A program made the position numbers and the translations under genes. Positions 30,019-64,000 of a DNA stretch of 64,000 nt are shown here, one piece after another (the stretch's first letter is position 1; every line of letters begins with the position of its first letter). Under the pieces are notes generated by a model. It was given only the letters and a program-made list of their open reading frames with translations. It was not told the DNA's origin and did not search any database. Source of the DNA: the human T2T-CHM13v2.0 reference genome, Homo sapiens; assembly GCF_009914755.1 (NCBI RefSeq), contig NC_060936.1. The stretch is one strand, 5' to 3'.

Positions 30019-31816
30019 AAATATCAATAACACTGAAATATACTCAAGACAACTTACCATCTCTTTTGTATTACAGTGAACATTTATTTTGTCCTGGGTT
30101 CCCACATGCACTCATGGTGACCATTCCATGCAATTTAGAACTTTGGCACTGAATTATCTTTGTTAATAAATTGGGTACAGTTCAACATGAAGAAAAGCGA
30201 GCTTACCAAGAAAATTTTGGAACCCAAATACCAGAGACCTGGATCCTCATGTAACCTTCGCCTTTGATTCTTGCCTCTTCAGTTTTCACTTTTCTAAATG
30301 CAAAATGCAAGTGTTGATTCTGGTCATCTTATACTGAACACATAGGTTTTTGGTTGGTGTTGACAGGGTTAGATTTTTATAATATCCCGAGGAGTTGAAC
30401 GTTATGATCCCAAGAGAAATTAATTTATTAACCAGTTGTTCTTTAACTGATACAAAAATTAGTTACTCTTCTCCTGGATGGTTTGCACATGAACATACAG
30501 GTGCATATCTCACTTGCTATGGTACCAAACAATGACATCATAGGATGCAGAAGGAGATGGTGTCATCACAGCTGTATGACATGAAAGTTATAGGATCACA
30601 GCATCTTAGGGTAGGCAAGGACCATCAAGTTCATTAAATTCAATTACATTTCTAATGCGTGAATCACTTGTATAATATCCAATTGCTTGTTGAATCTCTT
30701 CTTCTAGAATATAAGAAAGTACTTGAAAAGGGGACCACGTAAAAGACAGGAAAACAGGAGATTTCTATTCCAAATTTCTAAGGATGCTTTTTTTTATTGC
30801 TGTTGTTTGCTAATAGATATTATGACAGTTGGTAACTAGAGAATCTCTAAGGAAGAATCTGTAACTATCAGTCTCCTACCCTTGATGTTGTGGTTCTAGT
30901 CTATTTACAGTATGCCAAATAGCTTCTTGCCCACTGGAGCTCAGAAGACCTTCTAAAGTTAGAACTTTCCAGTGTTAAAAGTTTCTACTACAAGCTAAGG
31001 GTCTGTTGTATTCCCTCAATTCTTCCTTTAAGCCGTCATATCTAAGTTAGAAACATGTGCAAGTATGTGTGTTTGTGTGTTTGTGTGTTTTTCTGTGTGT
31101 GTCCATATACTTGTGTGTGTGTGTGTGTTCTCGGTGTTTTTCTTACTTGTAGGAAAATGATGACTCTCTCCCACCCCCAATTTGGTACTAGTGGCAAAGC
31201 ATCATTTAAGAGGGCCACACACTGGTCATTTTTGTTATGAGCAAAAAATATAACTGGTCTTACACAGTTTTCCTTCCTGTTAAAAAAAGGAGTAATCTGT
31301 ATCTTCTCTACCTCCCATAGATATATTTTGACAATTACGATACCACCATCTTTCATTAGCTCATTAATCTAAATATATATGTTTCTATTACAACATTGCT
31401 TACATAACAGAGAGCCAATTTCAAAAGAAGTATGTTCACCCCATTTAACTATTCATGCTGAAGCACTGAGTTTTGCAAATAGAAAAGCCCTAAAGCTACA
31501 ACAAGATGATGACAATGATGACAGCAACAGTAACAGAGACAATACAACACTTAGACAGGCATTTGTTCCCAGTACTGGGTCTGAGGAGGACAGGTGAGAA
31601 ATAGAAATGTAACTGACTACAAGTGAGTGACTGGACCAGGGATTCCAGAGCAATTCCGCTTGCCTTTGTATTTCAAGGTTCTTGACCCTCCTCTTCAGGA
31701 GTATATTATGGGTTATTATTTTTTTTTTTTTCATTTTATCTTGTGGCAAAAGTATAAATGTGGTCTCTGAAGAGAGGTCATTATTTTAAAAGGTCTGAGA
31801 AGCTTTAAAAAAGCTG

Positions 31817-48818: not shown

Positions 48819-48978
48819 TTAGGAAACTTTCTCAAGGTCAAAGCCGAGTTATTCCAAATTTGCTTTCATTTCATTGAAGACCATCTTGACTCTTTGGGGT
48901 GAGTCCAACACATCTATGCTGCAGCTGATCATATTGTAGCCTGCTGAGAAGGACCTCTTGATCTTCAGAGCACATTTC
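48819..48978 (-). pseudogene. TH2: Hydroxylase pseudo-exon C (terminal coding exon, 160 nt to the ancestral stop) with premature TAA; absent from the ORF track
   Basis: Acceptor cttatttttttctgccAG (48980-48979); the first G completes CA|G from exon B. It encodes 52 codons, collinear with recalled TH [52 protein letters not shown] (17/52 identical, including IDVLDSPQ). Premature TAA at 48851-48849; ancestral-position TAA at 48821-48819. Confidence 0.9.
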
Positions 48979-49049
48979 CTGGCAGAAAAAATAAGGCAAG
49001 CACAAGGTAAGGTTGCCTTCCACAAGCAAAAGTGAAAAGAACAAAAGCA

Positions 49050-49282
49050 ATAGCTACATTTGTTAAGTGCTTATTGTGTACCCTGTTCCATTAATATTAC
49101 ACTGGTCATCTGATTTAATCTTCACCATAACCTTATGAAGAAATATTAATAGCCCCATTTTATAGAGGAAGAATTGAGGCAATAAATGGCTAAGAACCAT
49201 CCAAGGTCACAAGCTAGTAAATGGTAGAGCCAGGACTTGACCCTGTGCAGTATAGCAAGAATTCACATTCTTAACCACTGTG
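49050..49282 (-). mobile_element. MIR in the last pseudogene intron
   Basis: atagctacatttgttaagtgctta...ccccattttatagaggaagaattgaggca...ccaaggtcacaagctagtaaatgg. Confidence 0.8.
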
Positions 49283-49616
49283 CCTGTTAGTGTAAGTGAT
49301 CTCTCTGGCTTTCTCATTTAAGTTTCTAAAAATAATGAATTCTTATACAATCTTTAGGGTTTTCCTTCTGCAGCTTTTCTGGTCATTGTAGAAAACAGCC
49401 GTACGTATTACATAAAATTATAGCATTAAAAATAATGATATAAATACTGCTTTTTTTGACAATGCATCTTATAGCTCGTATATAAGCAAGCATTTCACAA
49501 ATAAGTGAAAAATGCAAATAAGACAGTGAGATTGTTGTATCTTTGAAGGTGTGGGATCATTTTGTCTTGAATGTTTGAGTGAAGACATTGTCAAATGAAA
49601 ATGGGCACTTAGATGG

Positions 49617-49826
49617 GGAGGGTGGTCCACAAACTAAGATTTGTAGATCTGCTGCCTATTTTTGTAAATAAAGTTTTATTGGAACACAGCCACATCATTT
49701 TTAGATTGCCCATGTTTGGTTTTGCACTACAATGATACAGTCAAGTAATTGTGACAAACTGCATGACCCACGAAGCCTAAAATATTTACCATCTGGCCCT
49801 TTACAGAAAAAGTTTGCTTACCCCTG
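49617..49826. mobile_element. MER58A-like element
   Basis: tttgtaaataaagttttattggaacacagccac...aagcctaaaatatttaccatctggccctttacagaaaaagtttgcttacccctg. Confidence 0.85.
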
Positions 49827-52115
49827 ACTTAGATGACAGTGACAAAATTATGTTCTGATAGTCTGTCTTAACTTATATCTGTCATTTTCAGTTGGTTGAA
49901 AATGTGGGATTTCACTGGTACAATATCAATGAAATTTGACATTATTTAATTTTACATAACCCAAAACTGCAAATAAGAGGAGCTGACAGGTCAAATGGCT
50001 AACATTTATAATGAAGCATTGTTGCAGTTCTGAATTTGACAGCCAAAGGCAATCCTAAATAAGATAGAATGAGAAGCTGCTCCATGATTCTCCAACCTCT
50101 CGTCCACTTCTGTCTATACCTCTAATCACAAGTAATCATTGTCATTATTCTTGTTATTGTTTTATTTACAAGGGTTTCACCTTTCCGACCTATAAGTTTC
50201 TTGAGGTCAAAAGATTGCCCTTTCATTAGCCCGGAACTTGGCACAGTGTTTGGTAGGAGACGGGCACATAGTAGTAGCTGAATGAATAACTACATAGCAT
50301 TGAGTTAAAGAGTCCATGCTTAGGAGAGTTAGGGAAGCTGCTACAATACGGAGATGTTTGGGCAGAGTGCTATCTCAAAGACTGGGTGAGCCAGCAGTGA
50401 ATTCATAAAAGTCACAGGGTTATTACCTAACCAATATGCAAATATATCCCAGGCTAAGTGAGGAAATCATGGCTAACTTTTACTGATCACACATTATCCT
50501 CTAGAGACACACCTTTCTCAGCTCCTTACATTTATTTCATTTAATCTTCACGACGACTCAAGGAAATAGGTTATTCTGTTTATTTCATAAGTGAGGAAAT
50601 AGAGGCATAGAGAGGTTTATTACCTAATCCCAGCTTACCCAGCAAAAAAAAAAAAAAAGGTAGAAATCAGTCTTAAACCCAAGGAGTCTGAAACCAGAGA
50701 CAAAATTTTCAATAGTTATGCTATATTCTTCTCTATGTGGCTGTATCTGTGACTTCTTCCTCTTCAGTGGTTTCCAAGACATTCTATAGGGAGCTCTCTG
50801 AGAACATATATTTTTACTTTTCTAACAAAAACCAATTGCCCAAACCTAGTTTGTTGCATAACTATGTATTTTATTGCCAACTTCCTAGTAACTAGCCTAC
50901 ACAAAAATAAAGCATATCTGGTGAACAGGGATAGGCATAACATACTCTATTGCCTTTATATTTCCAGCACTCATTTGGAATTTACTCTGTTATGCTTTTC
51001 TATGAAATTAAAATTATACTCTTTCAAATTTTGAAATACTGGAAAACTTTAGATAAAAGTCCTTGCTAGCCATATCCCAGTCTTCTGTCCAGTAGAATCA
51101 ATATCACCCAGGAGCTTGTTAGACATGCAGAATCGAGGCCCCATCCCAGACTGACTGAATTGAAACCTGCATTTTAACAAGCTGACCAGGTGATTTATAT
51201 GCACTTTAAAGTCTGAGAAATATTGACTCTGTCATGGCAGAATGATTACCATTGATTCCCCCAAAGAGAACAATTTGGGTACCTCTGGTTAGATGGGAAA
51301 GAGAGGCAGGCTGATAAAAACCTGATATGCTTGGGGCAGAGGCCCCATCCTAGCTGTGAAAAGACCTAGTGGCTTATAGCCCTGACTGCTTTTAAAAGCC
51401 CCAGAACCCAGGCTTCTCACCATACCAACTAATTTAGAACCTTTGAGGTGGGAACTATGTACCAGTATTTTTTAAAGATCCTGGGGTGAAGGTTAGTCCC
51501 TCTGTTGGAAATGGGTGTTCTTTGTAGGAGAGGAGGGAATGTGCCTCTATTTGCCCTCTTCAGCTGGGGAACTGACACTCACCTTTAATGTCTCAGTTTA
51601 TGCCTTAATGTTTTTTTCCTCCAGGAAGTCTGAATTAGGTGCCCCTGCGTGCTCCACAGCACCTACGTTACTTTTATCAAAAGCTATTGTAATTTCCTGT
51701 GTACTTTTTTCTGTGTCCCATTTGCCTCAAAATTTCATGATGGCAACACAGTAGCCATCTTGCTCACATGTGAACAACAGCTGCAGGAATGAGCACTCAG
51801 TGCACACTGATCATGTGCCAGTCCCTGTGCCTCTATTACCTTAGTTAAGACCCATTGCAACCCTCTTATCATCTCCATTTTCCAGGTGACAATTGAAGAT
51901 TTAAGAAAGTGAACTTGCCTCAGGTCACACTGCTTAGAAGTCCTTGGCGCTATTTTCAGTTCCTGGCACCTAGTAGGGTGTTCAATAAAGATTTGTTGAG
52001 TGAAAGAATAGAGGCATGAGCTATTGTCTTTTCAAGCCTGCCCACACCTTCTGTGGTGGAATTAAAGCCACACTGAGATTTCCTCCCCCTACTCTCCACC
52101 CCATCCCACACTCAC

Positions 52116-52249
52116 TGGAGCTCAGCCTTGACATCTTTTAAGTTCTCTGCCACAAAATAGATGGGCTGAAAGTCCCAATCTTTATATGCCTGGATGGCAG
52201 CAGCTTCTGCATCAAAGGGCTTGTATTCTGGCTTGTTTGACAGAATGTG
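52116..52249 (-). pseudogene. TH2: Hydroxylase pseudo-exon B (134 nt; equivalent to the penultimate TH exon / PAH exon 11) with mutated acceptor
   Basis: HILSNKPEYKPFDAEAAAIQAYKDWDFQPIYFVAENLKDVKAEL+CA vs recalled TH [44 protein letters not shown] gives 22/44 identities. Donor GTGAGT (52115-52110) is intact, phase 2. The polypyrimidine tract is present but ends ttttctttaAA|CAC instead of AG. Confidence 0.92.
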
Positions 52250-53383
52250 TTTAAAGAAAAAATCAAATGAGAGCGAAGAGACCAGATGTATAAAATTTTC
52301 CAAAGTATTTACTTTCAGCTTAGAGTCTCAAGCTGTGTTTCTCAACCTGAAGGCGGAGGACATAGTGTGGGAGGATTAGGGCATGGAATTGTGCAAAGGA
52401 CCTTAATCCTCAGCCATGTCATATATTTTCTTGGAGTGGAAATAAGCTTTATTCTCCACTCCTAGATGTACTGTTGGATTGTAATACTGTCATAACAAAT
52501 AAAATGCGAGCTCATTTAAAATTATCAAATCCATATTAGCTTTCCATCATCTTAGTAAGTACAAACAGCAGCGCTAATACATTTTGTGGGGTCCAGTGGG
52601 GATTTTTGAAGTTATTACTAGTAATAAAAATTCCAAATATATATTTACTGTGCAATGTACTGTGAATGCAGATTATCTCATATAATTCTCCATCAGCCCT
52701 TTGAGGTAGGCACTATTATTCTTGCTTTATACATGAGGATCACAAGATATTTAAAAACAGTGGTAATCGTATTTCCTGCTTAATAGTGTAATGGAGAGTA
52801 AACAGCTGGGGAACTCTGTCAGGTCAGTGCCAGAATGCCCTCCCCCACCAAAAATGAATCCATGGAGGCTCAGACAGCTTGGAGTGGGAGATGGGGAATG
52901 CTAATAACTATGCCTGGAAGTGACAGGGAGCCTCATGTAGACTGACAGAGTCTAAAATTTGGGAGTGGGTAGTAAGCCAGCAGGGAGGTGGCAGATGCCC
53001 AGACTATTTAGCAGGGCCTAGAATGGGTGTCTTAGGATGAGAATGGTACCTGTCTAAGGCAAATGAGTTATCACCTTGGGTTGGATGTGGAGAATATGTA
53101 TGGACCTCCAATGTCTAGAAAGAGCGCTTCACATTTACAAGTATTCACTGAGTCCCTACTGTGTTCTGCGCACAATGCAAGTGGCTGGAATACGGTTCTG
53201 AGCAAAAGAGATATGGTTTCTGCCTTAATCAGACTTGTTTAGAGAAACTGTTCAAATATTTACATGAGGCACAACAAAACTGTAGCAAGTGTGATGAAGG
53301 AAAGGTACAAGGTGCTATACAAGCATCCAATAGCAGAATCTGATTTCATTTGGGGGTCTCAGAAAAGGCTTTCCTGAAGAAGT

Positions 53384-53541
53384 ACTGGAGAGAGAGGAGA
53401 GCATTTCTGGCAAAGGGAATACTGGTGCCTAGATCCAATCCCCAGAGGTTCTAAATTGATTGATATGGTGATGAGCCTGGTCTTTTAAAAGGGAACAGCT
53501 CTTGGGAACTGGAGAGAGAGGAGAGCATTTCTGGCAAAGGG
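53384..53541. repeat. Perfect 34-bp direct repeat flanking a 90-bp insert
   Basis: actggagagagaggagagcatttctggcaaaggg at 53384-53417 and 53508-53541. Confidence 0.95.
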
Positions 53542-54049
53542 CCCCGAGGTAGAAGGAAGATAATACATTTGAGAAAGTGAAAGAAAGCCAATATGTCTTG
53601 AGCTCAGTGTGGGTGAGAAAAATACTTCTGTCTCGGAGGAGGTGAGACTCTGCACCAGCTATATAGATAGAGACTTTGACCCCAGAAAACAAGACAGGGA
53701 ATGAACCATTGAAACCTGAGCCCACGAGAAGACTAGAAGGGCTAAGGCTATTGAAGTATGAGTCTGAACTTCAATTTGTCATCGCAAAGGATGCAGGTGG
53801 TCCCAGTGTAGCCCTCAGTATACTGCCTGACAAGTGTGCAGGCAGCATGTACCCTGCTTAGGGCCAGGAAAGTTGTTTCAGACCTAGCTCCACCTCCTTC
53901 TCAATTTGGTATTACTGGGATTCTGCTGACCCCATTGTATTGCTTAGAACATTGCTACTCAAATTGGAGTCTTAGACTGACAGAATTTCTAGAGGTGGGG
54001 ACTGGGAGTTGTGTCGAGTGATCCTTATGTAGTTAAACTTTTGGTAATG

Positions 54050-54578
54050 GTGGTTTAGAAATGTGATCTTCAACCTTAACTGCACACTAGTGACCTAGAA
54101 GATCTTTAAAATTATTGATGCCTCAGCACCACCCCCACAGTTCCTGATTTAATTGCTCAGAATGTTTGTTGGGCATTGAGAATTTTGAAAGCTCTTCAGA
54201 TGACAGTAATGTTCAGCTAGATTTGAGAACCACAGATTTAGAGGCTAGTTCCCAAATGCCAGTCCACAGATCAGCTGTATCAGAAATATCTGGAGTGCTT
54301 ATAAAGAAATCGCCAGCCCTACTTCAGACCTAACATGCCAGAATTTCAAAGGGTAAAGCCCAAGAATAGGTACTTGAAAATATTTATCCTGACACTGAAA
54401 ACAAATATGGGACCACCACGTGATTTTTGAACCTATCTGGGCTTGGGAGGCCCTGATTTAGATTGAGGCATCTGAAACTGTAATCTGATTCAGTCTGTGG
54501 CGGCGTCCAAGGTTCTGCATGTTTAACAAGTTTTAAGGTTGTGCTGCTCGTCTGAGGACCACACTGCAAGCAGCAAGG
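54050..54578. mobile_element. Cluster of MER5-like hAT fragments
   Basis: Repeated MER5 motifs (gatttgagaaccac, catgtttaacaag, gaggaccacact). Confidence 0.6.
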
Positions 54579-57241
54579 GTTCAGGAGACCCAGAGGAAAG
54601 AATGGGCAGCTTTAATTTAAAATCTGTAAAGGGCTGTACCTGAAATCTATTAGCACAAGGGACCCTATTTTCATGGCCCTCTCTCTTTACCAGACCACTT
54701 TCTTTAGGGCAAGGATTGGGCCATTATCGTGTCTCCATTGCTAGCATCGAAACACAGTGCTCAGCACATGTTAGGAACACAATAAATGGGTTTTGAATTG
54801 ACTGAATACCATGACGTCCTTAGGGTCTAAGCTGTGGAGCCAGCTGAAGGTGAGACATTGCTATAATGCGGGCCTTCTGCCACTTCCAGTCATAAATTCC
54901 AATTGGACGGGGTCCAACGTGAAGCTGTGTGTTACCAAAGCCTCCTCTGTAGGGGGTAGGGTCAAAGCAGGCCTCTGAAATATTAATAATTCTGAGCAGT
55001 GACCACAGCTATGATATTTACAGACCCATGAAGCGCAAGAGACAGCCTGAGGTTGCTCACACAGCCAGAGACTCCAAGGACTTACTCTGCTCCAAATGGA
55101 GCATGTATATTGCCCAATCCTGCCAAAAGCCATACGGTTCATTAGCTTTTACTATACAGAGAAATGCGCCAGGCCTGGTGCTAAAATGACATGATAAAGC
55201 ATATTTGACAGCAATAGTCAGAGGAAAAGGCACAGTGGGAACGGAAGAGCTCTGTGGGACGTTGCTCATGCCTTTGGAACAGAAGAAAAATACCTCTGCC
55301 TCTCGATTTGGAGACCCAGGCTGGTTGGAATCTGACAAGGACTTATTACTTTAGAAACGTTTTTCAGGGATTTGATTTCATCCCCTGGATTCTCTTTGCC
55401 TGGTGATGGATGTTTTTCTCCTTAATATTTTTTGATGCTGTGACTATTTGTGTGGTTTGTGAGTTAGATATTGGGAGGGGGTCAGGAGAGGAAAAAGACA
55501 CAGAGAGAGAAAGAGTAAAAGACACAGAAAGACAAAGAGATAGAGAAGGGAGGGAGGAAGAAAAATGCCCACAACTGTAAGTGAGTGGAAAAGAGTGGAT
55601 GAAGAGCAGTGAGGAAAGGAGATGGGATGTCAGAGGAGGGTGGATGCTAGGAGGATCCAGGTCAGGGCCCTCCCTTCATTTGGGATGGATGGTCTTTATA
55701 CTTAAGGCTGGTCTTAGTGTGTTCTGATGGGTACTTATGTAATCTCTGTCTTCTTTCCAAGAGGCACAAAACTAGAATTTCTGGTCTCACCTTCAGTCCT
55801 AATAACTCTTTGCCTCCTGCCTTGCCATGAAATCTCTTCCCTAATTGTTTTTCTGCCACCATCACTCCTGTCCTTCCTATCAAAGACTACATGGTCTGGC
55901 TCAGGGACATTTACATTTATGTGTTAGAACTTTCTCAGGCTGTTATACCCCAACTTAATCTGGTCCTACCACACTTAAGTCTTTTGCCCATCTTCCCCCA
56001 GTGCCTTTGGCTCCCTTCTCTGGGCATAGCCTGAGACAGGGTTTCATGCTCTGCTTGGCCCACTCTCCACTCATCTGAGTACAGATTCTCCCTGGAATGT
56101 ATTCCAAATAGCCCAGTGTTTCCCAAAGTGTGTTTTCTGGACCATCTGCTTCAGAGTCATGGAGTTGGGGTAGAGAAAGGGAAAAAAGGGATTTTTTTTA
56201 ACATGCAGATTCCTGGGCTCGGTTCTCCAACCCCTAAACCAGACTGGGGACTGGAGGTGGGGGCAATTTTGAAAATATGCAGTTTTAATCCTTGACCCAG
56301 GATTGCGAAATATAGTAAAGTTTAAGAACCTCAGCAAGACCAGCCTTCTGGCTTCCCAGATTCTTTCTCCTTCAAGACCTGGCTCAGAAGATCAGAGACT
56401 CCCCTCCCGCAACACACAGGGTAATGTCAAAAGCCTGGGCCACACACCTTACACAAATCACTTAAACTCTCCAGGCCTTTCTCATCTTAAAGCAGGGGGC
56501 AGCATTGAAGTCACAAGTAGGAACAAGGACAGGACAGGTGACATCTAGACAGGAATGACGCTGGCCTGATGGGAATTAGGGGAACTGGAAGCTGCAAGCT
56601 TCAAGCAGGCAGCTGCTCCTCCAGTGCAGTCAATTGTGGCCAGATGGGAATGGGGCCCAGAGATGCCAAATCTTCTGAAATTTTTAGGGAAGCTAGAAAT
56701 CAGAATTTCTATGTAACATTTCCCAATTTTTTTTTTTTTATTCTCTGGCTAATTTCTTTTTAACGGGCCAAATAAAATTACACATGTGGGGCATATTTTA
56801 GCTGTTGAGTCCACATTTGCAATCTCCAGACTAAGGCTCCCTAAGGTTGCTTTCCACACGAGAGTCCTGGCATACGGCGATCCTGAAGCCCCCTGGTTAA
56901 ACAGGTTGTTCTGTTGCTGGTTGGAGCTTCCCAGCTGATCCCTCTGCTTTCCAGGAAAACCCCACAGCTCCCCTTGTTCTAAGAATCACTAAGGTTCTCA
57001 AAGCTTAGTGTGCATCACAGTCACTTGGAGGGCTTAGTTAAAACACAGCTTGTTGGGTCCTACCCGCAAAGTTTGCGATTCACAATGTCTGAGTTAGGAC
57101 TTGAGAATCTGCGCTTCTTACAGACTCCCAGCTGCTGAAGCTGCTGGTCCAGTGTTGGCACGTTGAGAACCATGGCTGTAGACCCATTACTCACTACTTG
57201 TTACCTATGATGTTTGCTTTCTCCTTAAAACCAGCACTCAG

Positions 57242-57572
57242 GGCTGGGTGCGGTGGCTCATGCCTGTAACCTCAGCACTTTGGGAGGCCGAGACCGGTGT
57301 GGATCACCTGAGGTCAGGAGTTTGAGACCAGCCTGGCCAAACATGGCGAAACCCCGTCTCTACTAAAAGTACAAAAATTAGCCAGGTGTGGTGGCAGATG
57401 CCTGTAATCCCAGCTACTCAGGAGCCTGAGGCAGGAGAATCACTTGAACCCAGGATGTGGAGTGAGCCAAGATCGCGCCACTGCACTCCAGCCTGGGCAA
57501 CATGAGTGAAACTCCATCTCAAAAAAAAAAAAAAAAAAAAAAAAAGGAAAAGGAAAAAAGAAAAAAAAAAAG
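57242..57572 (+). mobile_element. AluSx-like element
   Basis: gatcacctgaggtcaggagtttgagaccagcctggccaa; TSD aaaaccagcactcag / aaaaccatcactcag. Confidence 0.95.
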
Positions 57573-57783
57573 AAAACCATCACTCAGGTTTTAGCTTCTC
57601 TCTCATTCCTGAGTCACTTCGTACTGCAATACTTTGTGCCTTCCTGGTGTTGCTCACATGATCAAGAACTCATTTTAACAATAGCTGCCATGTTTGAGTG
57701 CTTACAGTGTGCCAGCCATTTGTCCAAACACTTTACTGTGTAATCGTCATCAGACCTTACTAAGGAAGGTATCATCCTCAATC

Positions 57784-57833
57784 TCTACATGAGGAAACCA
57801 AAGCCTGGTCTACATGAGGAAACCAAAGCCTGG
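57784..57833. repeat. Perfect 25-bp tandem duplication within a MIR
   Basis: tctacatgaggaaaccaaagcctgg twice. Confidence 0.95.
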
Positions 57834-59149
57834 AGAAGTTAAGTAACTGGCTTAATATCACAGAGTTTAGTGAATGGTAGAAACAAGGTCCCAACCCAAA
57901 CTGTCTGGCTCCAGAGATTGGTTGTCATATAACTTATAGACCAAGCTGCAACACTTTTGAGAGTGACACGAGATACTATTAATAATTATGCCAGGACAAC
58001 AGATATAAACCAAGACTGACCTTGGCAAACCAGGACATGAGGTTGTCCAACATATTCTGCCATTTTAAATGTACTCGTTGAATGGTTACAATCTTGTGAA
58101 ATGACGACAAGCTTTACAGCCAGCCAAATTCAGGCTTAATTGAGCAGAGGCGTGAAAGTACCCAACACAGTGCCTGCTGCATGGTAGGAAATCGGTAGAT
58201 ACCTGTTTCCTTCTGCCAAGTTTCTAATCCTTTGCTGGGCAACATGGGCAAGTGTAACATGTAGCCCTTATTCTGGAAGCCCTTACAATAGAGTTGATAG
58301 AAAAAAGGAACATAAATGAAAACTTTTAAAGATTATTCTAAGACTTTAGTAATCCGAGGCTGAGCATAAGAGTTCAGAGATGGTGATTCTCTTAGCTTTT
58401 GAATTTTTAGGTGAGTAGAAATTTGAACTGTGTCTTGAAGACTGAGTAGAAGGCAGGAAGGTTAGAATTGGGTATAGCTAAAGAAAGACTGAGTTTATTC
58501 AGAAGTGTCTCTGTGACATAAGTTTGTCAAATATTTCAGCTCCATTCCAACCATAGTAGTATTCCAGATACAATGAAACAGGGACACACTTTTGTTGTAT
58601 TTTATTTTTTCAGTGTTGTGCACTCACGAACCCCTAGAGAGCCCAGATGAGGACTTGATTCTCCCAGGCATGGAAGGACAGACAGAGAAACTTCTTAGGA
58701 GCATTGGTCTGTGGTTTTCAAGACCTTCTGTTATTTAGGAATTTTGAACAAACTCCTGCCCCCGCAATGGTTTTCACAGTAAGAGCAACAGCTGCGGGGT
58801 ACTTATTCCTCCCTGATTTATGTAAAAAGGAAGAGCAACTTCATCATACTTTTTCTCAGTCCCAAGTGCGGGAAATTCTAAACAGGCTCAACACCACCCT
58901 CTAGTGTGCACAAAGGGCGGACGTGGGAATTGAAGCCTGTTCATGACAAAGGCAGATGGTGAAGACTGGAGAAGGTAGAGGGAGAGAAACATCCTTGTAT
59001 CTGCAGGAAGCCCATGAATTAATATATATCCAAGTGCTCTAAGGTAAAGTACTTCTTTAATAGAAAGATCTAAGGGAGCGCTTCCAAAAGAAAGAATATA
59101 ATGTTCTGTGAAATACTAATCCCACGAGATTCCGTCCGCACGCACTCTT

Positions 59150-59314
59150 TTTTTTTTTTTTTTTTTTTTATACTTTAAGTTCTAGGGTACATGTGCACAA
59201 CGTGCAGGTTTGTTACATATGTATACATGTGCCATGTTGGTGTGCTGCACCCATTAACTCGTCATTTACATTAGGTATATCTCCTAATGCTTTCCCTCCC
59301 CCCTTCCCCCACCC
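59150..59314 (-). mobile_element. Extremely 5'-truncated L1PA (about 165 bp of 3'UTR plus poly(A))
   Basis: Poly(T) then tatactttaagttctagggtacatgtgcacaacgtgcagg...; TSD cactctt (59143-59149 / 59315-59321). Confidence 0.93.
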
Positions 59315-59587
59315 CACTCTTAAAGTGCCCCACGGTTAACTAAGTTTGGAATCCTCTACACATCATTACAGTCTTCTGCAAGCCCCTGTTACAGCTTCAG
59401 TGTTTAGGAAAGCTGTTGGGAAGTTATGCAGTGATGAAAAATCCACTTCCCACAAACATTTGACCCCTGAACTTTTTTTTTTTTTTTTTTTTTTACCTCT
59501 ACAAGCCCCATGTCATCCCCTAACACAACTTCTCATGGAACGTACTTTGGGCAATGCTACTAGAAAAAGTACAAATGAAGTTCTTAC

Positions 59588-59683
59588 CTCCGGCTTCCCA
59601 TTTGATGAAACAAGTCCTGTCCCATAGGCTTCGATGGCTCCACTCTGCTTGCAAAGATCAAACTCTAAAGTAAACCAATAGAG
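59588..59683 (-). pseudogene. TH2: Hydroxylase pseudo-exon A (96 nt; equivalent to the antepenultimate TH exon / PAH exon 10)
   Basis: Acceptor ttttgtgccttgatcAG (AG at 59685-59684) and donor GTAAGA (59587 downward) are intact. Translation [32 protein letters not shown] vs recalled TH [32 protein letters not shown] gives 20/32 identities. The iron-ligand Glu of the WFTxEF motif is retained. Confidence 0.92.
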
Positions 59684-62600
59684 CTGATCAAGGCACAAAA
59701 TGGAAAAAGAATGGAGCGGTGACTGAAACCAAATATCTAATCAACAGTGCCAAGGACTGGAAGATCCCTCAAGAGGCTGAGAGGCAACCCAGTTCTTCCC
59801 CACTTCAACCCCATCCCGATCTTCAGGCAGGACAGAGAGCCTTCGTACTGCTCTCCTAATGCATCATCCTCAGTCCCCTGGACCCCGCTTCTTTCAAAGT
59901 TCAATTATATCTGAGGCTTAGTTCAAGGGTCCTCTTCTTCAAATCTTCTCATGACTCGGGGGCCCACTGAGCATTTCCTTTCCTTCAGTTAGATCACCCT
60001 TTCATGTATTCATTAAAAGCACATTGAACACTTACCATATGCGTGATACAGTGCTGGGAAATACAGATCTGAAATAGACAAAGATCCTACCCCCCAGAGG
60101 AGCTCACAATTTCTACCACTGGAAGAGGAATGAAGAGAAGACAACGAAGGCTCAGTTCTAAGGAAGGCTTCAGCAGATGAAGATACAGTAAGTTGCGGGC
60201 ACATTGCCTTGTAGAACATATCCAACAGCATTCTCACCATGATCACATCAAGTTATCAGAACACAGCCTGCCTCAGGTTAAGCACTCTATGGATGTTAGC
60301 TTTTATTTGTGTTGTTATTATCATTCTTGCTATTATGTATTACATTTATGTTGTATTACTTTTTTTCTTATTCTACTGTTCCTGTACAATAAAATTGAAG
60401 GGTAAGATGCTATCTCCACCACAAATGGTTTAGTTTGTGAAATTACTGCAATACTCAGTGATTGCTGATAAATATCAATGCCAATGACACTTTATTCCTC
60501 TCCCTGTAAAATGATGCTACCAGTAACTATCTTTTCAGATTTCATTGATTCGTCAATTTTTCTTCATTCATTGAAATAATATAAGGTTTCCATTATGTGC
60601 CAGACTCTGTGCTAAGGAAAGGGAATATAATAATAAGACAGACAAAGTCCCTGCCCTCCTGGAGTTTGCTACATCTCAGAATTGTGGAGATTTCAGTGAG
60701 ATTACTTTATATGTGTGCATTTTCTGATATGAAAGGCTGGGTAAATGTAGAGTATTATTATAACTTAACAACCCACCAACACTACTGCTGTCAAGCATAG
60801 CCTCCAGTCTCTGAAATAGAGAATCTCACTGTGCTTACCTGGCACAGTGCCTGGTTTCATAGGCACCTTCAGAAATGTCTGCTTAATGAATGAATGAGTG
60901 GAAGAATTAATTAGAAACATTATTACTAAATTTCATTTTCTACATAAATAATAATCATGATGAAATGAAGGGGGGTGAATGGGAATACCTATGAATTAGT
61001 CAACTCTTGTTACATGGTAATTATGACATTGTGTACTTTTTTATCATTGTCCTCCTAGCAACCATGGTGTTCAGTATCAATATTCTCATTTTACAGATGA
61101 GCATAAATGAAGTTCAGGGATATTAAGTAACTTTCCCAGGGCTTCAAAATTATAAGCACAAATAATAACGGAATCAGTGGCCTGAGAACACACTCACATT
61201 TTCCTTCTCCTTTAAGGGGTAGTTTCATTCTTTTCCCCAGACCCTATTTTATTATTGAGGAACATGGTCTTCTTTTCCAGATTAAACTAAATGGGGATGG
61301 ATGAGGTGATGAGTTCCACCTAATGTGTCACAGCTGGAGATGCGTGTCATGGCCATTAACTGAAATTAATGCCCTGAAGGCAATCATTACCAACCCCAGC
61401 CTAATAGAAACCAAGGGCATCTCTGATAAAACAGTTTTGATTTCCTCCCAACATTTTCCAAATAAAGTTAAACAAACAACAGATTTCCTTAACACCAAAA
61501 GATGTGTTGTCGCTGAGCGGATTGAATCTTGATACAGAACTCAGTTACAAGGTAACAGGACCAAAGAAGGTCTAACAGTCACCTATTTGAACCGTTTTCT
61601 TGATGATGAATCTTCTCTAATGCTCCCTTCCCCAAATGCCCTCTAGCCTATGCTTGGATACTCCTAGTTGGAGAATTTCTTCATGCTTAAGATAGCCCAT
61701 TTTATCTTTAGAGTGAGCTTATTGGAAAGTTCACTGCATGTTGAGCTGAAACCTGCTTCAAGTGGCTTCTCCTCATTGTTTCTAATTTTCTTCCTGGGAG
61801 TCACTAGGAAATGTGATTTGCCATCCCCAGGAATAGTGTTTCCAGACTACTCCTATGGTACTTGCTCTACTACACACTTATACACTCAATATTTTTATTC
61901 AACTCATTATAACTTTACCTATTTTAATCTACAACTAAGCAATAAAATCTGTGAAATCATAGGTTGATGTGTTAGCTTTATGGTTTTCTAACACATATTA
62001 ATATTATTAATGTATTATTAATTATATATATTGTTTGTGTTATACATTATTTATATTAATGTATTATTAATTATATTATCATTAATGTATCAATGGTAGT
62101 ATGGCCATCCCATTTGGGAAACACCATGCATATCCCTTCTCTGTATATACTAGTTGAAAATAACAGCCAATCTTCATCGAGTTTCCAGTTGGACAAACAT
62201 TCTTAGTACTTTCAATTATATAATATAGAGTGAAATTAATTTACTACCTTGGTTATTTGCCTCCAATTTGTCTGTATGCCTATTTAGGTTTGGGGGCCAG
62301 TCTCAAATACAGTACTCTCATTATATATGCTATGATTTTATTAATCTGTGTTTCCATTAGCCTTGGAAGTCAGACTATGTATTTCTAAAGAGTTCACTGG
62401 TCCTCAACTTCTTTAAGTCTTTGTTACCTGCACCAGCATATCATCCTTCCCCATCTTGTTCCTTCTTTTGGAAACAAGTATAAGAGCTTTCATCAATCCT
62501 CACTGCATTTCATCTTGGCCTATCAATTTATAACCTGCGAAGATGCTTGTTGATTCTGATTCTGTTACCTAAATTATTCATTTTCTCTCCAATCCTCTAA

Positions 62601-64000
62601 TTATATATATATATTTGATAAACATGCATTTTGTATTTTCATGTAAATCACTGACAGGCATGTGGTCCTAGAAACTTGCTTCCAGATTAATATTGGTCCA
62701 TCAATCATCTTGCTTTAGGCACTAGTTACTATAATCAAATCCATGTTTATTATTAATCCTCTAGAGGCTTTTGTCATTTAACATGGCCTATATAATACTC
62801 TGGTAATTACTTCTTACATACTGATGTACCACCCATATGAACACTTGATTTTTGTAAGATTACTAAAGAATTCTTTAAACATCACTCTACTCTGGAAGTT
62901 ATAATAAGGATTATTGAGTTCCAACTTATCCATTTATTGGACCAAACACTTGACCTATACTGAGCATTTTAACTGCAATAAGTTCATAATAATAAAGATT
63001 ACTATCCTGAAGATATTGGAGGAAGATATTGGAGATCCTGAAGATTTTTAAGGTCATAACACCAAGCTAAGTAACCTGGTTGGTAGGTGGAGAAGATAAG
63101 ATTCAAACTCAGGTCTGTCTGACATCAAAGTCCAATCCATTTCTATTGTAAGATGGTCAGCTCAGAGTGGAAAACGCATTTGGAAAAATGTCTGCTCTCA
63201 CGTTTGCTGGGTATAGTGTCTGCATTTTGTACGCTAATATGTAACAGCTATCCTGGAAAAAATATCAGGTCCTTTTCTGAGGGCTTTGATTTTTTTAAAG
63301 AAAATTGTAGTCACATAATCTGCACAGAAGACAAGCTCCTATAGAAGATGAGGCATTCTTTGACCCTGCAAGGAGTCTCAGTGTGGAAGCTCTGAGCAGA
63401 GAGCAGCAGCAGGGTGCATGCACACTTAAGTTTTGCACAGTGAGGCAATACTTTTAAAAGCTGGTATATTAAGCCAGATCAGAATTTAAAATGAGCTTAT
63501 CTGTGATCTCTAACTGTGGCATAATTCCATAAGAAGAAGAAATGAATGTCTAGATTTATCCCCCGATCCTGAAGCAACTGCCACTGCAGCTAACACTAGC
63601 TTGCTTCTGCTTGATGGATAGCATAGTAGTATCATCTCTAACCATAGTACTCTCCAATGTACATTTATGGACACATAAGCAATCCAGCTCCTCTCCCTTT
63701 AAGAGTTGCTGTCCTAGAAATGGGGCTGCACTATTCATCCCACCCTACAGAGGGTACAGAGGGCCACTCAACATGGGGGCCATTTCAAAATGATGTAGGA
63801 GACTGATGGCTCCCAAAGGTAGGACAGACTAGTAGCTGTGCCATATGGACTTTTAGTTATTGGACATTCACCCCTTTGGGAGAAAGTTGGGATGGCTGCT
63901 TTTCAATAGGTGCAGGATCTCTGCAGCTTTGGCCCTGTCTCCAGTACTTAGAGGGTGGGTAGCAAGCAAACTTTTCCAGCAGAAGGCTGTGTTTTCACAT

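What the first reader, a model, noticed from the sequence alone, without database searches (positions are those of the whole stretch)
48819..59683. Fossil of a lost vertebrate dopamine-synthesis gene: intron-containing tyrosine hydroxylase paralog (probable TH2 unitary pseudogene) in a primate genome
Seen in sequence: three ordered minus-strand exons (96, 134 and 160 nt; internal junction phases 0 and 2) with real splice signals and kb-scale introns. Together they encode about 129 codons of an aromatic amino acid hydroxylase catalytic and tetramerisation region. Established: primates have four functional family members (TH, PAH, TPH1, TPH2), and this sequence matches none of them closely (about 33-63% per exon to TH, by eye from recalled sequence). 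Non-placental vertebrates carry a second TH gene, TH2, in the IGF1-PAH-ASCL1 region paralogous to IGF2-INS-TH-ASCL2, and it is described as lost in placental mammals. Inference: this is the physical remnant of TH2. I cannot tell whether any database already annotates it.
Basis: partly seen in the sequence, partly recalled or inferred. Interest (0 to 1): 0.95.

Follow-up and report, generated by a model that had tools for sequence, protein, structure and literature searches.

The report
Decayed human TH2 gene relic
Between IGF1 and PAH the human genome still carries the broken, intron-containing remains of TH2, the second dopamine-synthesis (tyrosine hydroxylase) gene that fish, frogs, reptiles, birds and the echidna keep and placental mammals are said to have lost.

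Summary
They are far beyond chance: Pfam Biopterin_H positions 203-323, and TH2-profile E-values of 3e-17, 1e-12 and 1e-9.

They are the 3' end of a much larger relic. A TH2 profile scan of the window plus the next 64 kb found eight significant exon remnants and one weak one. All are collinear on the minus strand and span about 63 kb (window numbering 48819-111902, so mostly beyond the right edge), ending about 14 kb short of PAH.

A careful ML tree places the relic inside the amniote TH2 clade (98/96). It sits beside the echidna TH2-like protein and away from mammalian TH1. An AU test rejects grouping with TH1 (p 0.0014).

The gene order IGF1 - relic - PAH, all on the minus strand, mirrors IGF2 - INS - TH on chr11.

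It is dead:
- a premature TAA;
- a 10-nt deletion, a 1-nt insertion and a TAG in one exon;
- lost splice sites;
- four exon equivalents undetectable;
- 15 of 51 universally invariant TH residues replaced.

No paper found in my searches mentions the relic, and RefSeq has no model here. The 5' exon remnants lie inside the lncRNA LINC00485, on the same strand.

The parts
48819..48978 (-). Last exon relic (El): end of the catalytic domain plus the tetramerisation helix. The ancestral stop is at 48821-48819. The acceptor cag| is intact.
   Evidence: TH2 profile E 1.2e-9. In PDB only TH chains match: 6 of 6 hits.
48849..48851 (-). Premature in-frame TAA inside the last exon, ten codons before the ancestral stop. 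It cuts off the end of the tetramerisation helix.
   Evidence: tblastn and frameshift-aware alignments to five TH2 proteins run through it to 48822.
52116..52249 (-). Exon relic Ek (134 nt), with an open frame and no indels. The donor CA|gtgagt is intact.
   Evidence: TH2 profile E 3e-17. 28/45 identical to echidna and alligator TH2 against 22/45 to mammalian TH1.
52250..52251 (-). Position of the acceptor dinucleotide of exon Ek. It reads 'aa' instead of 'ag', after a normal pyrimidine tract.
   Evidence: The homologous boundary was fixed from Pfam positions and from the human TH exon map.
59588..59683 (-). Exon relic Ej (96 nt), with an open frame and both splice sites intact. It contains the iron-ligand Glu (LEFDL), but the invariant Gly next to it is now Asp.
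   Evidence: TH2 profile E 1.1e-12.
59684..64000 (-). Start of the intron upstream of exon Ej; no exon relic was detected in it. The rest of the relic lies beyond the right edge. In continued window numbering (chr12 position = 102672000 + n):
- Ei 74377-74321 (weak; donor 'ta')
- Eh 75376-75307 (intact sites; keeps HELLDH)
- Eg 85289-85163 (10-nt deletion, 1-nt insertion at 85186, TAG at 85275-85273)
- Ef 92002-91907 (3' third lost, no donor)
- Ec 110316-110227 (intact sites)
- Eb 111902-111732 (57 codons against 58 expected; 'caa' at the acceptor; donor one base out of register)
- LINC00485 first exon, about 113528-113424
   Evidence: No hit in 59684-64000. Outside exons: TH2 profile E 6e-5, 3.8e-8, 2.1e-7, 1.6e-5 and 6e-7; Ei E 0.027. 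Lesions. LINC00485.

Best explanation
This is the unitary pseudogene of TH2. TH2 is the second vertebrate tyrosine hydroxylase gene; it arose with TH1 in the IGF/INS-TH-PAH paralogon.

What the ancestral gene did: it encoded an iron- and tetrahydrobiopterin-dependent tyrosine 3-monooxygenase. The enzyme had an N-terminal ACT regulatory domain, a catalytic domain and a C-terminal tetramerisation helix. In chicken, frog and zebrafish it is expressed in hypothalamic cerebrospinal-fluid-contacting cells.

What is left in humans: the gene stayed at its ancestral place (IGF1 - TH2 - PAH, all on the minus strand). It kept its intron positions and phases but lost function. At least nine of about thirteen coding exons are still recognisable over 63 kb.

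Shown here:
- the exons and their order;
- TH2 ancestry;
- synteny;
- the lesions (stops, frameshifts, lost splice sites, replaced invariant residues).

Inferred:
- the sequence makes no enzyme today;
- it has drifted without protein-level constraint for roughly the age of placental mammals.
For: 1. Family. Pfam Biopterin_H matches three consecutive exons. A TH2 profile finds 8 collinear minus-strand hits with E <= 6e-5 among 8791 ORFs of window + 64 kb; the ninth best has E 2.1. A ninth exon appears in a targeted search at E 0.027.

2. TH, not PAH or TPH. PDB bit scores for exon B are TH 37.4, PAH 30.0, TPH1 18.3 and TPH2 14.4. For exon A they are TH 38.1, PAH 36.4 and TPH2 31.7. Exon C matches TH only.

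3. TH2, not TH1.
- Over nine exons, 177/353 residues are identical to echidna and to alligator TH2-type proteins, against 147/353 to a mammalian TH1.
- Careful ML tree of 46 rows and 463 columns: the relic is inside amniote TH2 (UFboot 98 / SH-aLRT 96) and tetrapod TH2 (99/96). All TH2 separate from TH1 at 96/92. The relic is sister to echidna plus two unnamed proteins at 87/52.
- An AU test rejects relic + TH1 (lnL difference 25.2, p 0.0014).

4. Synteny.
- On chr12, IGF1 exons lie at 102.381-102.437 Mb, the relic at 102.7208-102.7839 Mb and PAH at 102.801-102.838 Mb. All are on the minus strand.
- On chr11, IGF2, INS and TH lie in the same order and on the same strand.
- A turbot gene model (P0148) fuses a near-full PAH (residues 29-456) to a TH2 (447-847). 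This implies PAH followed by TH2 on one strand there too.
- A passage in PMC11222543 names the paralogy group PAH, TH2, IGF1.

5. Not processed. Intron positions and phases equal those I mapped in human TH.

6. Dead. The lesions are listed under parts. 15 of 51 columns invariant in all other TH rows are changed in the relic, against 0-2 of 51-53 in four functional comparators. The end branch is 1.25, against a median of 0.099.

7. Only copy. The genome-wide search gave 38 matches, all in TH, PAH, TPH1, TPH2 or this locus.
Against: - TH1 is represented only by three mammalian sequences. No fish, frog or bird TH1 was available, so the TH1/TH2 split rests on limited sampling.
- The relic is a very long branch, which makes its exact position uncertain. 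Its mammalian sister position has only 87/52 support.
- Three exons (Ec, Eh, Ej) keep both splice sites and show no indel or stop. The last three exons together carry no indel. That is somewhat tidier than I would expect after about 100 million years of neutral decay. I could not test for residual constraint because no orthologous DNA from other mammals was available.
- Exon 1 and three further exon equivalents (Ea, Ed, Ee) were not found.
- Whether GENCODE or Ensembl already list the locus is unknown to me.
Confidence: 0.93

Rival explanations
1. The relic is dead as an enzyme gene, but part of it lives on as RNA. On this view the former TH2 promoter and 5' exons now drive or form the lncRNA LINC00485, so the locus is a gene-to-lncRNA conversion rather than inert DNA. 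This adds to the best explanation; it does not exclude it.
For: Published LINC00485 primers place its 5' end at 113525 and its 3' end at 98415 on the minus strand, in continued window numbering. The hub's table gives the span as 98415-113528, minus. Relic exons Eb (111902-111732) and Ec (110316-110227) lie inside that span on the same strand. Ec has a strong acceptor and donor. The lncRNA start sits in a CpG-rich stretch 1.5 kb upstream of Eb.
Against: I never saw the internal exon table of LINC00485, so overlap of its exons with relic exons is untested. No TH2 exon 1 or Ea similarity was found at or near the start: the best hit has E 1.3 and lies upstream of it. Eb lacks an AG acceptor. A CpG-rich start can arise independently.
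Confidence: 0.3
2. The exons are the remains of a tandem duplicate of the neighbouring PAH gene, or of another aromatic amino acid hydroxylase paralogue, and not of TH2.
For: PAH lies only about 14 kb upstream on the same strand (hub table). Exon A scores nearly as well against PAH (36.4 bits) as against TH (38.1).
Against: Exon C matches only TH in PDB, and it is one exon as in TH. Exon B favours TH by 7 bits. The regulatory-domain exons match the TH2 profile. In the tree the PAH part is the outgroup, and the relic lies deep inside TH2.
Confidence: 0.02
3. It is a duplicated or retrotransposed copy of TH (TH1) from chromosome 11.
For: TH is the best PDB match for every exon. PDB holds no TH2 for comparison.
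Against: The copy has kb-scale introns at the ancestral positions. An AU test rejects a clade with TH1 (p 0.0014). Identity is lower to TH1 (147/353) than to TH2 proteins (154-177/353). The position is syntenic for TH2.
Confidence: 0.01
4. The locus still encodes a protein, either a truncated hydroxylase-like product or a short peptide.
For: The exon A-B-C reading frame is open for 119 codons. Both iron-ligand His residues and the Glu are retained.
Against: - No start codon or upstream exon could feed that frame.
- Exon Eg is frameshifted and has a TAG.
- Exon B lacks its acceptor.
- 15 of 51 invariant residues are replaced.
- RefSeq has no model here (hub table).
Confidence: 0.02

Closest known systems
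Vertebrate TH2 (tyrosine hydroxylase 2; labelled 'tyrosine 3-monooxygenase-like' in birds, reptiles and echidna)
   Same: - Same orthogroup by tree.
- Same chromosomal neighbourhood, IGF1 - TH2 - PAH.
- Same exon layout as TH genes.
- Shared TH2-type motifs such as LSNKPEYKPFD, FVAEN..KLQ and THACKQYLD.
   Different: The human copy is broken: it has stops, frameshifts, lost splice sites and missing exons, and 29% of universally invariant residues are replaced. Its introns are expanded, so the gene spans about 63 kb.
Human TH (TH1, chr11p15.5)
   Same: It is the paralogue with the same domain order and the same intron positions and phases. It lies in the paralogous IGF2 - INS - TH block on the same strand.
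   Different: TH is intact and compact: its coding exons span about 7.6 kb. The relic is 42% identical to a mammalian TH1 over the nine exons, and the AU test excludes it from the TH1 clade.
Classic mammalian unitary pseudogenes that remain as syntenic exon relics (for example GULO in primates, vitellogenin genes in mammals). These examples are recalled; I checked no paper on them here.
   Same: An ancestral vertebrate gene is lost in a mammalian lineage, yet intron-containing exon fragments with disabling mutations remain recognisable at the syntenic site.
   Different: Here the lost gene is a neurotransmitter-synthesis enzyme. Its loss is linked in the literature to the absence of dopaminergic CSF-contacting cells in placental mammals (PMC6585609, passages seen).

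Membership tests
Biopterin-dependent aromatic amino acid hydroxylases (Pfam PF00351) | Significant match to the catalytic-domain profile | tested here: met
   two exons score above the 22.7-bit cutoff (35.7 and 43.3 bits) and the third scores 22.4 bits, at consecutive profile positions 203-323. Further catalytic exons were found with the TH2 profile.
Biopterin-dependent aromatic amino acid hydroxylases (Pfam PF00351) | 2-His-1-carboxylate iron site (my recalled definition of the family's active site) | tested here: met
   HELLDH in Eh and LEFDL in Ej keep the His, His and Glu columns. Neighbouring invariant residues are changed (G>D twice, R>Q, H>Y), so the site is retained only as sequence.
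Vertebrate TH2 orthogroup | Groups with named TH2 proteins and apart from TH1 in a phylogeny | tested here: met
   inside amniote TH2 at 98/96, with TH2 separated from TH1 at 96/92. AU p 0.0014 against TH1. Caveat: TH1 is represented by mammals only.
Vertebrate TH2 orthogroup | Lies in the IGF1 - PAH paralogon, next to PAH | tested here: met
   Searches (human coordinates; turbot PAH+TH2 read-through model), and a passage in PMC11222543.
Vertebrate TH2 orthogroup | Intact open reading frame encoding a full enzyme | tested here: not met
   Searches show a premature TAA, frameshifts and a TAG in Eg, lost splice sites, and four exon equivalents not found. It is therefore a pseudogene member, not a functional one.
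Unitary pseudogene | Disabled, at the ancestral syntenic site, with no functional orthologous copy elsewhere in the genome | tested here: met
   all 38 genome-wide matches fall in TH, PAH, TPH1, TPH2 or this locus.
Unitary pseudogene | Functional orthologues exist in other species | tested here: met
   full-length TH2-type proteins in birds, turtles, crocodilians, squamates, a frog, ray-finned fishes and the echidna. TH2 expression in chicken and Xenopus is reported in PMC6585609 (passages).
Processed (retrotransposed) pseudogene | No introns, colinear with the mRNA | tested here: not met
   Nine exon pieces are separated by introns of 0.9 to 18 kb at the TH intron positions.

The most novel reading that the evidence does not exclude
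The lncRNA LINC00485, studied so far only as a cancer-related 'sponge' RNA, may be the transcribed stump of the dead TH2 gene. On this reading its CpG-rich start descends from the TH2 promoter, and its first intron or exons carry the TH2 regulatory-domain exons.

If so, the locus is a dated example of a neurotransmitter-enzyme gene turning into a lncRNA. Its residual regulation (for example hypothalamic expression) could preserve a trace of the lost dopaminergic CSF-contacting cell programme.

A second open possibility concerns timing. The well-kept exons may mean that TH2 died later, or independently, in several placental lineages, rather than once in their common ancestor.
Probability: 0.3. 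Interest if true: 0.7.

Novelty: new member of a known kind. Interest (0 to 1): 0.55.

Why it matters
Papers state that TH2 was 'secondarily lost in placental mammals'. I saw passages to that effect in PMC6585609, PMC10433395 and PMC11222543. None of the papers my searches found describes what remains of it.

A physical relic turns that statement into something testable:
- Shared or different lesions across placental orders would show whether the gene died once or several times, and when.
- That timing can be set against the disappearance of dopaminergic CSF-contacting cells of the hypothalamus.
- The relic explains the origin of sequence inside a much-cited lncRNA locus (LINC00485).
- It gives annotators a pseudogene that RefSeq does not list here.

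As biology it is ordinary gene decay, not a new mechanism.

Tried and rejected
I replaced it with my own ORF-by-ORF profile scans.
- The search for homologous proteins with exon B, 'longer' and 'near'. It returned only P0001, a read-through translation of the same human DNA with TGA read as W. It also returned P0002, a 59-aa orthologous piece from an unnamed source, 91% identical. Neither gives taxonomic information.
- Searches for exon 1/Ea, Ed and Ee. The best E-values were 1.3, 0.17 and 0.33, no better than or close to the plus-strand controls (9.1, 0.45, 5.6). I count these exons as not found.
- A weak recurrent match at 30278-30138 on the minus strand (E 1.1, 2.1). It lies downstream of the gene's 3' end and is at chance level, so I rejected it.
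- Yamamoto et al. 2010 and Yamamoto & Vernier 2011 are not held. I could not see whether they mention human remnants.
- LINC00485 papers give primers but no exon table.
- No structure prediction or complex job was run, because neither would bear on a pseudogene.
The outside exons are now listed in text.


Full report
OBSERVATION

The three exons are real.
- On the minus strand, 59683-59588 (96 nt), 52249-52116 (134 nt) and 48978-48819 (160 nt) translate into peptides that Pfam assigns to consecutive parts of the Biopterin_H profile. The positions are 203-235, 236-281 and 282-323 of 331, with E 6.3e-9, 3.1e-11 and 7.3e-5.
- I scanned all 4478 six-frame ORFs (8 aa or longer) of the window with a profile built from 19 TH2-type proteins. 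These three are the only significant hits (E 3e-17, 1.1e-12, 1.2e-9), and the next best has E 1.1.

Two points were missed.
- The dinucleotide before exon B is 'aa', not 'ag'.
- The last exon has an in-frame TAA at 48851-48849. tblastn and frameshift-aware alignments to TH2 proteins continue through it to the ancestral stop at 48821-48819.

WHICH HYDROXYLASE

- Against all PDB chains, TH is the best match for each exon. Exon B scores TH 37.4, PAH 30.0, TPH1 18.3 and TPH2 14.4 bits. Exon A scores TH 38.1, PAH 36.4 and TPH2 31.7. Exon C matches TH chains only, 6 of 6 hits.
- A full HMMER scan of 1.84 billion representatives with exon B gave 126 hits. The top one is a 59-aa fragment, 91% identical, that also shares the flanking intron translation. 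That makes it an orthologous piece from an unnamed source.
- I searched on with one of the next hits (P0003). This returned 89 proteins, many of them named. They are 'tyrosine 3-monooxygenase-like' in birds, turtles, crocodilians, squamates, a frog and the echidna. They are 'tyrosine hydroxylase 2' in several ray-finned fishes.
- The spliced 119-residue peptide was computed inside a script. It aligns without gaps to these proteins at mostly 46-62% identity. Against a mammalian TH1 (P0073) it is 47%.

THE RELIC IS MUCH LARGER THAN THE WINDOW SHOWS

- The window's own genome is searchable. A turtle TH2-type protein gave 38 matches genome-wide. All fall in TH (chr11), TPH1, TPH2, PAH or this locus.
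- Four further collinear minus-strand matches lie to the right of the window.
- I fetched chr12:102736001-102800000 and scanned window + 64 kb (8791 ORFs) with the TH2 profile.
- Eight hits have E <= 6e-5. All are on the minus strand and all follow the order of the protein. The ninth best hit has E 2.1.
- In coordinates that continue the window's numbering, the exons are:
  - Eb 111902-111732 (ACT regulatory domain)
  - Ec 110316-110227
  - Ef 92002-91907
  - Eg 85289-85163
  - Eh 75376-75307
- A targeted search found a weak relic of the 57-nt exon at 74377-74321. Its E is 0.027 among 618 minus-strand ORFs, against a plus-strand control best of 4.1.
- Exon 1, the next N-terminal exon (Ea), and the two small exons between Ec and Ef (Ed, Ee) were not found above control level.
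- Exon boundaries and phases equal those I mapped for human TH on chr11.
- The relic spans about 63 kb, chr12:102720819-102783902. It ends about 14 kb from the 3' end of PAH as given in the hub's table.

TH2 ANCESTRY

- Over the nine exons the relic is identical at 177/353 positions to the echidna protein and 177/353 to the alligator protein.
- It matches 165-169/353 positions in chicken, frog and reedfish, 154/353 in a medaka TH2, and 147/353 in mammalian TH1.
- For trees I chose 45-51 of the 215 fetched proteins. I dropped most birds as redundant, and I dropped single-exon fragments. For the final tree I also dropped P0105, P0065, P0185, P0005, P0184 and P0173 as partial or long-branched.
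- The careful tree has 46 rows and 463 columns (LG+C20+F+G4) and is rooted on the PAH part of P0148.
  - The relic lies inside amniote TH2 (UFboot 98 / SH-aLRT 96) and tetrapod TH2 (99/96).
  - All TH2 separate from three mammalian TH1 at 96/92.
  - The relic's sister is echidna plus two unnamed UniRef proteins, at 87/52.
- An earlier quick tree of 52 rows agreed, with 95 for the amniote set.
- On that quick-tree data set the AU test rejects a clade of relic + TH1 (lnL difference 25.2, p 0.0014).
- Caveats: TH1 is mammalian only, and the relic's end branch is 1.25 against a median of 0.099.

SYNTENY

- Insulin-family exons of IGF1 lie at chr12:102380743-102436941 on the minus strand. That is 235-291 kb left of the window.
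- PAH exons lie at 102801389-102838385 on the minus strand. The relic sits between them on the same strand.
- On chr11, IGF2 (2221224-2223089), INS (2247506-2248538) and TH (2253608-2259240) follow in the same order, all on the minus strand.
- A turbot gene model, P0148, is a read-through. Its residues 29-456 are a near-complete PAH and residues 447-847 are a TH2. This implies that PAH is followed by TH2 on one strand there as well.
- A passage in PMC11222543 names the paralogy group PAH, TH2 and IGF1.

STATE OF DECAY

- Eb: 'caa' where the acceptor should be, one codon short, and the donor one base out of register.
- Ef: the 3' third is unrecognisable and there is no donor.
- Eg: a 10-nt deletion, a 1-nt insertion at 85186, and a TAG at 85275-85273 in the ancestral frame.
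- Ei: the donor reads 'ta'.
- Ek: the acceptor reads 'aa'.
- El: a premature TAA.
- Ec, Eh and Ej keep both splice sites and have no indel or stop.

51 relic-covered columns are invariant in all other vertebrate and invertebrate TH rows. The relic has changed 15 of them. Echidna TH2, frog TH2, a mammalian TH1 and an unnamed TH2-type protein changed 2/53, 2/53, 0/51 and 1/51. The changes include G>D next to the iron-ligand Glu, G>D inside HELLGH, and R>Q and H>Y in the FRVFQ.TQYIRH block.

This is the pattern of a sequence no longer selected as an enzyme.

As a rough inference only: 29% replacement at once-invariant codons corresponds to about 0.16 substitutions per site (binomial range roughly 0.09-0.26). 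With neutral rates for the human lineage, which I recall rather than computed, that fits a loss around the origin of placental mammals. The range is wide.

LITERATURE

- Passages in PMC6585609, PMC10433395 and PMC11222543 say that TH2 was secondarily lost in placental mammals. PMC11222543 says 'therians'. In chicken, Xenopus and zebrafish TH2 is expressed in hypothalamic CSF-contacting cells.
- None of the full-text searches turned up a paper that describes a human TH2 relic or pseudogene. The search for 'tyrosine hydroxylase 2' + 'pseudogene' + 'human' gave 0 papers. The search for 'unitary pseudogene' + 'tyrosine hydroxylase' gave 1 unrelated paper.
- The two key papers, Yamamoto et al. 2010 and Yamamoto & Vernier 2011, are not held, so a remark there cannot be excluded.
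- I consulted no supplements.
- The hub's RefSeq table has no gene model over the window part of the relic.

LINC00485

- Primers published for this lncRNA map its 5' end to 113525 and its 3' end to 98415 on the minus strand. qPCR amplicons lie at 100.4-101.4 kb (primers from passages of PMC7906134 and PMC7810966).
- Its start lies in a CpG-rich stretch, with GC 0.58-0.68.
- Relic exons Eb and Ec lie inside its span on the same strand.
- Whether any LINC00485 exon coincides with a relic exon, or whether its start descends from the TH2 promoter, is untested. I did not have its exon table.

VERDICT

It is a new, well-preserved example of a known kind of thing, and it is useful for dating a known gene loss. 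It is not a new mechanism.

Noticed in passing
beyond the right edge: continued window numbering 98415-113528 (chr12:102770415-102785528), minus strand: The lncRNA LINC00485 overlaps the 5' third of the TH2 relic on the same strand. Its first exon (about 113528-113424, donor TTCAG|gtacca) lies in a CpG-rich stretch 1.5 kb upstream of relic exon Eb.
   Followed up: partly
window 30138-30278, minus strand: A weak match to the TH2 profile (positions 259-285; E 1.1 in the window scan, 2.1 in the extended scan) recurred with several queries. It lies downstream of the relic's 3' end. I treated it as chance.
   Followed up: partly
proteins P0001 and P0002: Public protein collections hold 'proteins' that are read-through translations of this non-coding human or mammalian DNA. 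P0001 reads TGA as W and differs from the window by one residue. They probably come from host DNA in metagenome assemblies.
   Followed up: no
proteins P0148 and P0173: The turbot and Caranx gene models are named phenylalanine hydroxylase or hypothetical protein. I checked P0148: it is a fusion of a PAH and a TH2, which is an annotation artefact that incidentally records the PAH-TH2 adjacency. P0173 was not checked in the same way.
   Followed up: partly
proteins P0192 and P0194: Two UniRef entries whose species name was cut off in the listing are the closest full proteins to the relic (61.7% over 115 residues). They group with the echidna TH2-like protein on a long branch. They may be further non-placental mammals, which would bear on whether marsupials keep TH2.
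   Followed up: no
protein P0007: This 330-aa entry joins a reverse-transcriptase-like N-terminal part to TH2 exons Ej and Ek. It looks like a chimeric gene prediction across a retroelement in an unnamed animal genome.
   Followed up: no
window 59465-59495 and 57520-57580: Long poly(A)/poly(T) runs, the latter inside a stretch the hub lists as masked repeat, lie in the introns near exon A. They do not touch the exons.
   Followed up: no
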